DNA of 64,000 nucleotides from Laetmonice hystrix. Its lineage: Eukaryota. A program made the position numbers. The stretch covers positions 18,662,001 to 18,726,000 of the forward strand of contig OZ249451.1 in the NCBI GenBank assembly GCA_965235115.1, in the 5' to 3' direction. This document shows, one piece after another, positions 1-3,000 of this stretch (position 1 is the first letter of the stretch; each line of letters begins with the position of its first letter).

Positions 1-3000
1 CGTCAATCTGTCGCCGTGTAGGACGCTGATGGGATCTGTCATATAGGACTACTATATACACATTGTTGTGTGTACATGGTGGCTCAGACACATCAACTAT
101 CTGCTGCCCTGCTGTTTCACGCCATACAGGACGCTGATGGGTTCTGGTCATATAGGACTACTATAGACACATTGTTGTGTGTACATGGTGGCTCAGACAC
201 ATCAACTATCTGCTGCCCTGCTGTTTCACGCCATACAGGACGCTGATGGGATCTGGTCATATAGGACTACTATATACACATTGTTGTGTGTACATGGTGG
301 TTGAGATATTAGTTTTAGGTGTGCTCTGTGCGATGTTTGACCGGTGAATGTGGAGTGAGAAGGTCAGTGGGCGGAAAGAGAAATAGAACATGGAACTTTG
401 GGAGATTTAGGGACTGTCGGGTATAGTCTAAAATGTGGTTACAGGTTGAACCACGAGGGGGCGGTAATGACCCCCCATGAGCAAGCCCATGGGGAAACCA
501 TTACCCTACATCCCCTCGGGCTCAACATAAGACAAGTGTTGGGGAATAGCACATTTATTTCACCGGATATTAAAAACATGATACAATAATAAAATCGACT
601 TAGGAGATGAGGTAAATAATGGGTTAAAATATGACTTATGATAAAATGGCCAAGCCCCAAACTAAAATGGAAGTGAGGGTTATTGAATAATAAGTACGAT
701 TACATTTACTCAAGAGCTCGTCAATCTTTGAACCAGGTATTTTGAAACCGCATTTGCATCCATTAGCCTTATATATTTCTTATACGCATTAGAGGACCAG
801 GCACCGAAGTTCTGGACCTGGAGCTGGGAGAAGCCGCCCGCGAACGCGTCAGTGGCTGCGGATCTCCGGATGCTATGGAGTGAGACCGTCTGATGGGGTC
901 CCCCCAACCTCTGGATGATGGTTCGCAATTCCGCCGTCAGCCACCTAGCTGTGACTGGTGAATAATCCGCAGTGTGAACCAACAGAGGCTGTACCGGCGA
1001 CTTAGTGGGGGTATCTCTGATGACCTGGCGATACATAGTCACTGGGCACAACATGGGGTCTGGCCCGGGTGGGAGTGCGATTACCCTACTTTGATTATAG
1101 AGCTGCTGGTTCTTTGCCCATTTCTGCGATATAATTAACATTTCATCCTTAATATACACATCCTTCCTTGTGAGGTGTCTGTCTGGATCAAATCTGGACT
1201 GTGATGGGGGCACCACCTCCGATTGACGTGCGCCTGCGTAGTATAAGAGTAGGAATGCGAATCGGACGGAGTTCCCTAAGTAGCGTGACACTGTTGCCAA
1301 CATGACTGCCCTAAGCAATGCTGTATCTAGCGGTGGCTTTTGTAGTGGCGTATGGTCCTTCCGTCGTTTATGTGCATCTATTGCCAACTGGACGCGATAG
1401 GATTCGAATGCACTATTTTGGACTACCATCCTCCTAAGATACTGTCGGATAGCGGAGACATAATTTTCTATCGATGCTGGTGACTTAAGGAAGGTCGAGA
1501 AATATTCAATACACATGCATGCGTCCTGGACTGCTGGGGCTTTGTGATGAACCTGGAACCTGTGACAGAACGCCAAATACGCACTGACTGCAGTCCTGTA
1601 GTTTGCAGCTGTTCCCGGTGCCCTGGCGGCCCCTTGAGTTTGTACAGCTTGCCTAATGAGCCTGTCCCTCGCTGGATCCGTGGAGTACACAGTGACGGCA
1701 GCAGCGTTGTCGGAACGAACCATCACAGTCGTGCCCATCTGCTCTTGTGATAGAAACGTCCTGAGGGCTATAAGTACATTCACTGCCTCAATGTCTGAAA
1801 TATGCATGTCTTTCATAAAGGTGGGGATCGTTACCGAGTAGAACCTGTTCCCATCCGAGGCCCCTATACCTGATTTACACGCGTCTGCTACAATCTCCTT
1901 ACTGATACAGTCATTGTTTATTATTGACTTCCCGTTCCACTTAGGCAGAAAGTTAACGAACCAGTCAAGGTCACGTTTGTCCTCTCGAGTGAGGCAAATA
2001 TATCCACCTTTCGCGTCCCGGAAGGCCTGAAGCAGCCTACCCACAAACAGACGTGCTGGTGTGACACATTTGGAGATGTGCAGTATACGACCCAGGAGCC
2101 TCTGCATCCCTTTTTTGGTAATAGAACGTTTTTCTCGTACCTTTTCCACCTCTGTGAGAGTTTCTTCGATTTTCTTTTTTGGAATACTGACCAGCATGTT
2201 TTGAGTATCAATATCTATGCCGAGCCACTTAACCATAGTTGCTGGGGGCTGAGTCTTGTCAAATGCCTCTGGCAGGCCAAGTTCAACGAACAGATCCCGG
2301 GTCACCGTAAATCCCCGGCTGGCCTCCTTCATGTTCGGTGCAATGCCTATCAGGTCATCCAGGTACATATACGAAGAGACGCCCCTACTCCTTAGTACCG
2401 ACGTTATCACACCTGCCACACGGCCCATGTGTGCAGATGACACACGGGCTCCAAATGGCATTGCTATGTCTAGATATGTATTGCGTTTCCACTTGAATGT
2501 GAGCAGCGGCCAATCTAATGGGCAGCTGCGAAAGTTTTTATATGCGCGAGCTATATCTACGGTAAAAAGTACTGCGCCTGGTCCTATCCTATTTATCTCT
2601 CGTAATACACTATCGACAGTAGGAAGGGTGTGTTCCCTGAGCGTGCCTAAGACAGTGTTCTTAGCAATAAACGCATTAACTGATTTGTCAGTTGGGTATG
2701 ACATATCCATTATCACTCTCCTGTTTATGAAATCCGACTTGGGGCGAGTCATGAGTGGTGACACATGGCACCACTCAACAAACGGTGGGGCTGTGAATGG
2801 ACCCAGGACGGCGCCCCTATTGAGTTCTGAGTCAATGAACTTATGAACCTGCTCGGGGAATTGTTCTGCACTATCATGGTTGGGAGTTTCAGTTGTGTCT
2901 GATACTGGGCCAATGTATCCTAATGGGAAGCCGTATTTAATAAAACCAAGTAGTTCAGTGTCCTCCCCGTCTTTAGAGAGGTATTTTTCCCATGCTGGGA

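What the first reader, a model, noticed from the sequence alone, without database searches (positions are those of the whole stretch)
710..3000. RT, truncated RNase H and tyrosine recombinase fused in one reading frame
Seen: there is no stop or frame change between RT, RNase H and YR. RNase H has three acidic motifs (ADAC, DIEA, SDN), then passes within ~10 residues (VYST|DPARDRL...APGT..NY, ~1685-1600) into the YR core-binding domain. The usual C-terminal RNase H segment (H.PG..N..AD.LSR, carrying the last conserved Asp) is absent in all three minus-strand frames I translated there. Known: Ngaro/DIRS elements normally encode YR in a separate, often overlapping ORF. Inference: either this family makes a retrovirus-like Gag-RT-RH-YR polyprotein (no protease seen), or this copy carries an in-frame deletion or is the cDNA of a spliced RNA that joined RT/RH to YR. 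All catalytic RT and YR residues remain intact.
Basis: partly seen in the sequence, partly recalled or inferred. Interest (0 to 1): 0.85.

Follow-up and report, generated by a model that had tools for sequence, protein, structure and literature searches.

The report
Ngaro-like retrotransposon copy missing RNase H end
This is a young copy of a tyrosine-recombinase (Ngaro-like) retrotransposon whose polymerase gene runs straight into its recombinase, an arrangement already known, and which has lost the last third of its RNase H domain, so it is an ordinary defective mobile element.

Summary
One open frame (710-4084, minus strand, 1124 aa) carries RT, an RNase H-like remnant and a complete Cre-like tyrosine recombinase (YR).

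**RNase H.** The three acidic residues sit in columns invariant among relatives. The column with the fourth catalytic Asp is a gap in this ORF but holds Asp in 34 of 35 aligned relatives. No frame of the window encodes the lost segment.

**Fusion.** RT-RH-YR in one frame is not new:
- Seven relatives read from a longer RNase H into YR.
- These include the nearest one, P0129 (61% identity).
- A paper on fungal Ngaro states that YR can share the RT-RH frame (PMC3783388, passage).

**What is special here.** The pol gene has one in-frame deletion of about 80-84 codons.

**Best reading.** A recent, otherwise intact Ngaro-like copy with a defective RNase H. Its 198-bp repeats are identical and it has a gag-like ORF with an A_AAA_AAC -1 frameshift signal.

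**Still open.** No other copy of this family could be reached, so I cannot exclude:
- origin from a spliced RNA;
- a trait of the whole lineage;
- a misassembly.

Interest is low to moderate.

The parts
5477..5871 (-). 109-bp tandem array (3.6 units) upstream of the element in its own orientation; either part of the element or a host minisatellite
5279..5476 (-). 198-bp direct repeat, 5' copy, ending 10 nt before the ORF1 start codon
   Evidence: 198 of 198 identical to 301-498
4081..5268 (-). ORF1, 395 aa, Gag-like by position. No Pfam family. Its C-terminal third resembles the region upstream of RT in relative P0034. No stop or frameshift seen.
4090..4096 (-). A_AAA_AAC heptamer in the ORF1 zero frame, inside the 16-nt ORF1/ORF2 overlap. 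Inferred -1 ribosomal frameshift signal for Gag-Pol.
   Evidence: The hairpin 9 nt downstream is not significant.
710..4084 (-). ORF2 (pol-like), 1124 aa: repeat region, RT, RNase H remnant and YR in one frame. Breaks: 0 stops, 0 frameshifts, 1 in-frame deletion (about 80-84 codons against the nearest relatives) within the RNase H domain.
3324..4043 (-). 87-bp tandem array (8.3 units, 94% matches), giving 29-aa repeats in the N-terminal part of ORF2. Open only in the ORF2 frame. Absent from relatives.
2213..2692 (-). Reverse transcriptase domain (Pfam RVT_1, aa 465-624)
   Evidence: ORF2 keeps 110 of 116 comparable conserved RT/RH columns.
1706..1906 (-). RNase H-like remnant core: strands 1-4 and helix A, with three of the four catalytic acidic residues
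713..1627 (-). Tyrosine recombinase with N-terminal helical (core-binding-like) and catalytic domains, Cre-like fold. The near-invariant R, K, H, R, W and Y columns are retained.
499..709 (-). Unique 3' untranslated stretch between the ORF2 stop and the 3' direct repeat
301..498 (-). 198-bp direct repeat, 3' copy
12..306 (-). 109-bp tandem array (2.7 units) downstream of the element, running to within 11 nt of the window edge

Best explanation
The region is a recently inserted copy of a Ngaro-like tyrosine-recombinase retrotransposon on the minus strand.

Components. It has a gag-like ORF1 and a pol-like ORF2 in the -1 frame. ORF2 is reached, by inference, through ribosomal slippage on an A_AAA_AAC heptamer in the 16-nt overlap. 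It is read as one chain: repeat region, RT, RNase H, YR.

Fusion. Reading RT-RH-YR in one frame is an arrangement that exists in this group of elements.

Deletion. What sets this copy apart is a single in-frame deletion of about 80-84 codons. It removes the C-terminal third of the RNase H domain, including the fourth catalytic carboxylate, and brings a nearly full-length YR up against the remnant.

Consequence. RT and YR look functional. The RNase H is most likely inactive, so the copy is probably a defective, non-autonomous derivative. It would depend on RNase H activity from elsewhere: sibling copies or the cell.

Shown: the ORF structure, the missing segment, the intact YR fold and motifs, and the fused relatives with a longer RNase H.

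Inferred: loss of RNase H activity, frameshift expression, and that the deletion is specific to this copy or a small subfamily rather than the ancestral state.

The event that made the deletion is not resolved. It could be template switching during reverse transcription or a genomic deletion.
For: - ORFs and domains.
- Relatives: 59 proteins at E<=0.001. 53 of 59 carry the conserved Asp motif of the RNase H C-terminus, while ORF2 does not.
- Catalytic columns in A3: D, E and D are kept. The fourth Asp column is a gap in ORF2 but holds D in 34 of 35 relatives.
- Size of the loss: 84 residues against P0129 (61% identical, nearest), 80 against P0079, 79-81 against P0080 and P0015.
- No trace of the lost segment in any frame.
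- Fused architecture with a longer RNase H: 14 of the 18 long hits hold RT/RH and YR in one polypeptide. Seven of these read without interruption from RNase H into the YR N-terminus: P0079, P0129, P0131, P0203, P0105, P0106 and P0140.
- Literature: same-frame YR in fungal Ngaro (PMC3783388, passage).
- YR: 15 of 15 conserved columns kept. AF2 mean pLDDT 89.2. Cre recombinase is the top fold match (E 1.4e-09, TM by target 0.75-0.78).
- RNase H remnant: four strands and helix A are modelled. Confidence falls to 63-77 after them. Best fold matches are Ty3 RT and retroviral RNase H domains at TM about 0.5, and none reaches E<=0.001.
- Youth: the 198-bp repeats are 198/198 identical. ORF2 keeps 110 of 116 comparable conserved RT/RH columns.
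- Frameshift signal.
Against: - Only one copy could be examined. No second copy lies in the window.
- No protein above 61% identity exists in the databases searched.
- So 'copy-specific' rests on comparison with distant relatives only.
- Both long ORFs are otherwise intact, which would also fit a working variant.
- Two other relatives also lack the RNase H C-terminus while keeping RH joined to YR: P0001 and P0167. Such recurrence could point to a signal-driven process such as splicing. Boundaries could not be compared more closely than about +-15 residues.
- The next-closest relative by identity among those aligned (P0002, 50%) ends its RT/RH ORF with a stop. The parent may therefore have had two ORFs, with the deletion itself creating the fusion.
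- RNase H inactivity is inferred, not measured.
Confidence: 0.6

Rival explanations
1. The copy descends from a spliced element RNA. An in-frame intron covering the RNase H C-terminus was removed, and the spliced RNA was reverse-transcribed and integrated.
For: - RNase H C-terminus-less RH-YR junctions recur in unrelated lineages: this ORF, P0167 (an ORF on a 3.7-kb JGI/IMG contig) and P0001.
- In Branchiostoma, 503-aa gene models at four loci equal the first 174 aa plus the YR part of the 1366-aa relative P0106. P0106's own model joins a shortened RNase H to the same YR start. This would fit a splice acceptor just upstream of YR.
Against: - The removed segment is conserved coding sequence of RNase H.
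- P0001 has clearly different boundaries.
- The Branchiostoma proteins are computed gene models and may reflect internal deletions.
- No DNA of an unspliced relative was available, so donor and acceptor dinucleotides could not be checked.
- I built no spliced or joined model.
Confidence: 0.15
2. The short RNase H is the normal, working state of this lineage. The pol protein dispenses with its own RNase H C-terminus (for example by using cellular RNase H), and the YR N-terminal helix packs onto the remnant.
For: - ORF1 and ORF2 are intact and the flanking repeats are identical.
- YR and RT conserved columns are kept.
- AF2 places a helix of the YR leader directly after strand 4.
Against: - The fourth catalytic Asp column holds Asp in 34 of 35 aligned relatives.
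- The nearest relative keeps the RNase H C-terminus.
- Model confidence is lowest around the transition, 63-77.
- A young dead-on-arrival copy would look just as intact.
Confidence: 0.15
3. Assembly artefact: the missing segment was lost through a local misassembly or collapse.
For: The window is packed with tandem arrays (55 TRF rows) and holds one run of N. The region is therefore hard to assemble.
Against: - The loss is exactly in frame and lies in unique coding sequence, not in a repeat.
- Similar forms exist elsewhere (P0001, P0167).
Confidence: 0.05

Closest known systems
Ngaro superfamily of tyrosine-recombinase retrotransposons (order DIRS)
   Same: - Gene order gag-like ORF, then RT/RNase H, then YR, all on one strand.
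- No methyltransferase, protease or DDE integrase domain.
- Overlapping reading frames.
- YR in the same frame as RT-RH is reported for fungal Ngaro (PMC3783388, passage).
- Group definitions come from passages of PMC9210276, PMC4157794 and PMC8547959.
   Different: - The A1-[ORFs]-B1-A2-B2 split direct repeats were not found. Instead, a 198-bp perfect direct repeat flanks the body, with 109-bp arrays outside it. The window edge cuts the 3' side.
- The RNase H lacks its C-terminal third.
- No named Ngaro reference sequence came back from any search, so placement rests on architecture, not on a tree.
Cre recombinase and other two-domain tyrosine recombinases (XerA/XerH, lambda Int, Tn1549 Int)
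   Same: The YR part superposes on Cre over 324-347 columns (E 1.4e-09 to 6e-09, TM by target 0.72-0.78). The R, K, H, R, W and Y columns are kept.
   Different: Only 15-17% sequence identity. Here the YR is the C-terminal part of a reverse-transcriptase polyprotein.
RNase H domains of LTR retrotransposon and retroviral reverse transcriptases (Ty3 RT 4ol8 and retroviral RNase H entries, as named hits)
   Same: The remnant's strands 1-4 and helix A match these folds (TM about 0.5) and carry three catalytic acidic residues.
   Different: - No match reaches E<=0.001.
- The fifth strand, the last helix and the fourth carboxylate are absent. The canonical five-strand layout is recalled knowledge.
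- Relatives with a longer domain match Pfam RVT_3 (P0026 25.8 bits, P0079 23.1 bits; cut-off 21.6). This ORF matches no RNase H family.
Gag-Pol expression of retroviruses and LTR retrotransposons by -1 ribosomal frameshifting (recalled knowledge)
   Same: pol lies in the -1 frame, and an X_XXY_YYZ heptamer in the gag zero frame sits a few codons before the gag stop.
   Different: No significant downstream structure (z = -1.2). Not tested in relatives. No protease to process the product.

Membership tests
Ngaro-like YR retrotransposon | Reverse transcriptase domain | tested here: met
   Pfam RVT_1, E 7e-08, above the cut-off. ORF2 keeps 110 of 116 comparable conserved columns.
Ngaro-like YR retrotransposon | RNase H domain following RT | tested here: inconclusive
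   Only the N-terminal two thirds are present, with three of four catalytic residues. There is no Pfam RNase H hit.
Ngaro-like YR retrotransposon | Tyrosine recombinase instead of DDE integrase, downstream of RT/RH on the same strand | tested here: met
   Cre-like fold and conserved catalytic columns. No integrase family in Pfam.
Ngaro-like YR retrotransposon | No methyltransferase domain | tested here: met
   No such Pfam hit in ORF2 or in 10 relatives. The YR follows the RNase H remnant directly.
Ngaro-like YR retrotransposon | Split direct repeats A1-[ORFs]-B1-A2-B2 | tested here: inconclusive
   One repeat pair (198 bp) flanks the body like A1/A2, but no B1/B2 pair surrounds the 3' copy. 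The window ends 300 nt beyond it.
Ngaro-like YR retrotransposon | RT or YR clusters with reference Ngaro sequences in a tree | not tested
   No named reference Ngaro protein was returned by any search. Relatives are unnamed or 'uncharacterized'.
DIRS1-like / PAT-like elements | Methyltransferase domain after RT/RH | tested here: not met
DIRS1-like elements | Inverted terminal repeats with an internal complementary region | tested here: not met
   The only inverted pair in 1-8000 is a 42-nt, 74% match inside the coding region.
LTR retrotransposon / retrovirus | Aspartic protease and DDE integrase in pol | tested here: not met
   No such Pfam family.
Crypton (YR DNA transposon) | YR without reverse transcriptase | tested here: not met
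   RT is present in the same ORF.

The most novel reading that the evidence does not exclude
The short RNase H is not damage. On this reading it is a recurrent, signal-defined isoform of Ngaro-like elements. An in-frame intron inside pol, sharing an acceptor just upstream of YR, would yield an RT-YR fusion protein, and its spliced RNA would occasionally be copied back into the genome. The copy here, P0167 and the Branchiostoma 'N-terminus + YR' models would be three traces of retrovirus-like subgenomic splicing in tyrosine-recombinase retrotransposons.
Probability: 0.12. Interest if true: 0.6.

Novelty: new member of a known kind. Interest (0 to 1): 0.25.

Why it matters
As it stands, this is annotation. 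It describes a young, nearly intact Ngaro-like element of a family with no close relative in the protein databases searched (at most 61% identity), and it carries a defective RNase H.

It corrects the idea that an RT-RH-YR single frame is unusual for this group.

Two by-products could interest transposon specialists:
- A textbook -1 frameshift heptamer at the gag/pol overlap of a tyrosine-recombinase element. No paper in the searched library links Ngaro with ribosomal frameshifting.
- RNase H C-terminus loss recurs in separate lineages. If signal-driven, it would bear on how these elements express their recombinase.

Tried and rejected
- PDB by sequence: nothing for ORF2 aa 300-1124, and only chance antibody hits for P0079.
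- Alignment A1 (150 rows, RT plus YR proteins together) misplaced the YR rows. It was not used for structure prediction. Only its RT rows were used for column counts. The A3 figure is not meaningful, because most counted columns lie outside the 123-aa query, and is not used.
- Protein atlas for ORF1: only unnamed clusters, recognition value below the usual level.
- Search with the RNase H/YR part of P0129 found only itself.
- Prokaryotic genome contigs: alignment A2 was too diverse to give patterns. With A4, 51 pattern matches were found, none confirmed by tblastn.
- Pairwise alignments to test whether P0167 and P0001 share this ORF's deletion boundaries: estimates swung by -14 to +15 residues with the gap penalties, and the script stopped after one reference. 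No conclusion.
- Classic split direct repeats: sought with seeds of 8-12 nt, not found.
- Frameshift-stimulating structure: not significant.
- Rfam and tRNA scans of the window: nothing.
- Rejected readings: DIRS1/PAT (no methyltransferase, no inverted repeats), LTR element (no protease or integrase), Crypton (RT present).

Full report
**What is there**

On the minus strand, two long ORFs fill 710-5268. ORF1 spans 4081-5268 (395 aa) and ORF2 spans 710-4084 (1124 aa).

ORF2 has a Pfam RVT_1 domain (aa 465-624, E 7e-08) and a sub-threshold Phage_integrase match (aa 941-1100, 17.2 bits against a cut-off of 27.1). It matches no RNase H, protease, integrase or methyltransferase family. ORF1 matches nothing.

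The N-terminal quarter of ORF2 is an 87-bp tandem array (3324-4043, 8.3 units) that reads as 29-aa repeats. It is open only in the ORF2 frame, with 0 stops against 8-32 in the other five frames.

No second copy of the element lies in the window. One run of N (40965-41107) lies far from the finding and was left alone.

**Relatives**

A search with ORF2 aa 300-1124 gave 59 proteins at E<=0.001, with best identities of 38-51%. All but one cover only the RT/RNase H part. Their alignments to ORF2 stop inside the RNase H domain, while the proteins themselves go on.

By a pattern taken from that alignment, 53 of 59 carry the conserved Asp motif of the RNase H C-terminus. ORF2 does not. The six without it are:
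- P0001, an internal loss;
- P0016, P0034 and P0058, where the protein or its aligned part ends earlier;
- P0042, not examined further;
- P0059, a distant hit.

In alignment A3 (35 relatives plus ORF2), the first three catalytic columns hold D, E and D in ORF2 and in 35/36, 36/36 and 36/36 rows. The fourth Asp column is D in 34 of 35 relatives and a gap in ORF2.

ORF2 lacks:
- 84 residues against P0129, 81 against P0015, 80 against P0079, 79 against P0080 and 75 against P0002;
- 32-72 residues against a more distant clade.

RNase H C-terminal segments from 56 relatives found nothing significant in any frame of the window. The one strong hit was a segment that my pattern had mis-anchored in RT. 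So pol has one in-frame deletion, no stop and no frameshift.

**The recombinase part**

Eighteen shorter proteins match the YR part. Thirteen of the 18 cover 97-100% of it at lengths of 311-334 aa. Their N-termini begin only a few to some thirty residues before the first conserved YR motif. ORF2 therefore contains a nearly full-length YR.

In alignment A2 (117 relatives), all 15 columns conserved at 90% or more are kept in ORF2. These include the R, K, H, R, W and Y columns.

The AlphaFold2 model of aa 700-1124 has mean pLDDT 89.2 and pTM 0.77. Its best PDB matches are Cre recombinase chains: E 1.4e-09 and upwards, TM by target 0.72-0.78, 324-347 aligned columns. Sixty-nine matches reach E<=0.001.

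**The RNase H remnant**

Both models show three strands, a long helix and a fourth strand. Confidence then drops to 63-77 around the transition to YR.

The remnant alone (aa 700-822, pLDDT 80.8) finds Ty3 reverse transcriptase (E 2e-03) and retroviral and bacterial RNase H domains at TM about 0.5. No match reaches E<=0.001.

Relatives with the longer domain reach Pfam RVT_3: P0026 at 25.8 bits and P0079 at 23.1 bits, against a cut-off of 21.6. ORF2 does not.

That the canonical fold needs a fifth strand and a last helix carrying the fourth carboxylate is recalled knowledge. That the remnant is inactive is inference.

**Is the fusion itself unusual? No.**

An exhaustive profile-free search with aa 700-1124 found 4260 proteins at E<=0.001. 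Of the 150 listed, 18 are 440 aa or longer.
- Fourteen of the 18 hold RT/RH and YR matches in one polypeptide.
- Seven read without interruption from RNase H into the YR N-terminus: P0079, P0129, P0131, P0203, P0105, P0106 and P0140.
- P0129 is the nearest relative of all, 61% identical over RT/RH. It keeps the RNase H C-terminus and continues in frame into a YR leader that is 62% identical to that of ORF2.
- P0079 and P0129 have ENA as their only listed source. P0105, P0131 and P0140 are NCBI models from a hemichordate and from amphioxus.

Other relatives end the RT/RH ORF with a stop. These include P0002, the closest by identity (50%) of the relatives aligned, as well as P0005, P0011, P0012 and P0015.

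The literature agrees:
- In Xenopus, the Ngaro ORFs overlap (PMC9210276, passages; its supplementary tables were closed).

Whether the parent of this copy had one ORF or two cannot be decided. The nearest relative favours one.

**Surroundings**

A 198-bp direct repeat flanks the body (301-498 and 5279-5476, 198/198 identical). This argues for a recent insertion.

Outside it lie arrays of a 109-bp unit: 12-306 (2.7 units) and 5477-5871 (3.6 units). The last 32-38 nt of one array are repeated at the start of the other. By my arithmetic, the two arrays minus the overlap add up to 6.0 units.

This is not the A1-[ORFs]-B1-A2-B2 pattern given for Ngaro (passages in PMC9210276, PMC4157794 and PMC8547959). 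No B1/B2 pair was found. The window ends 11 nt beyond the array, so the test is inconclusive.

The window as a whole is packed with minisatellites (55 TRF rows). That makes a host array as insertion site plausible.

**Expression**

ORF2 is in the -1 frame relative to ORF1 and open from 4099. The 16-nt overlap holds A_AAA_AAC (4090-4096) in the ORF1 zero frame.

By rough arithmetic of my own, such a heptamer in phase within so short an overlap is expected in well under 1% of cases. A 6-bp hairpin follows after 9 nt, but the fold is not better than shuffles (z = -1.2).

Frameshift expression of a Gag-Pol chain is therefore inferred, not shown. I did not write out or build any joined reading.

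ORF1 aa 256-352 resemble the segment upstream of RT in relative P0034 (28%, E 7e-11). This supports ORF1 as a conserved element gene.

**Reading and rivals**

The best reading (0.6) is a young Ngaro-like copy with one in-frame deletion in RNase H. It is probably non-autonomous for that function.

The spliced-RNA reading (0.15) gains something from recurrence:
- P0001 and P0167 also join a shortened RNase H to YR.
- In Branchiostoma, four loci encode 503-aa models equal to the first 174 aa plus the YR part of P0106.
- However, boundaries could not be compared within +-15 residues, P0001 clearly differs, and no relative's DNA was available.

The other rivals are a working lineage trait (0.15) and misassembly (0.05). 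They cannot be excluded from one copy.

**Verdict**

- Observation: confirmed.
- Interpretation: partly supported.
- Novelty: a new member of a known kind.
- Interest: low to moderate.

Literature searches for Ngaro with 'ribosomal frameshifting' found 0 papers. Searches for tyrosine-recombinase retrotransposons with 'slippery' and 'frameshift' found 3 papers, 2 listed, neither about such elements by title or abstract. Searches for Ngaro with non-autonomous, RNase H and deletion found 2 plant transposon reviews, listing only.

Goodwin and Poulter's primary descriptions of Ngaro were not read. They are known to me only through citing passages and recall.

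Noticed in passing
window 4090-4099 (minus strand): The ORF1/ORF2 overlap of 16 nt holds a canonical -1 slippery heptamer, A_AAA_AAC, in the gag-like zero frame. The hairpin 9 nt downstream is not significant. No paper in the searched library links Ngaro with ribosomal frameshifting.
   Followed up: partly
window 3324-4043 (minus strand): An 87-bp x 8.3 tandem array codes for 29-aa repeats in the N-terminal part of the pol-like ORF. 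It is open only in that frame and has no counterpart in relatives.
   Followed up: partly
window 12-498 and 5279-5871: The terminal structure is unusual. A perfect 198-bp direct repeat flanks the body, with 109-bp arrays outside it whose phases overlap by 32-38 nt and together make 6.0 units. It fits neither classic split direct repeats nor a short target duplication.
   Followed up: partly
window 6000-64000: Very dense minisatellite content: 55 TRF rows covering many distinct arrays with periods of 17-332 bp. Examples are 35361-38131 (55/110 bp, about 2.8 kb), 55898-57013 (17 bp) and 59435-61106 (69/88 bp). No Rfam family or tRNA occurs anywhere in the window.
   Followed up: no
window 18738-19343 (minus strand): A 201-aa ORF gives a Pfam ALTTAQ_rpt hit (E 7e-13) but lies on a 24-bp x 21 tandem array. 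It is probably a translated repeat rather than a gene.
   Followed up: no
window about 6140-6185: A short degenerate TTAGGG-like tract lies in the flank upstream of the element, seen by eye.
   Followed up: no
relatives P0004, P0008, P0013, P0023, P0025, P0038: In these proteins the RT/RH frame stays open for 150-300 residues beyond RNase H, as low-complexity sequence that does not match YR. It looks like an alternative frame over the YR gene kept free of stops.
   Followed up: no
relatives P0150, P0228, P0230, P0231 versus P0106 (Branchiostoma gene models): Four loci encode identical-length 503-aa proteins that equal aa 1-174 plus aa 1037-1366 of the 1366-aa relative. This is an N-terminal part joined to YR without RT. 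It reflects either internal-deletion derivatives or a spliced recombinase message.
   Followed up: partly
   Followed up: no
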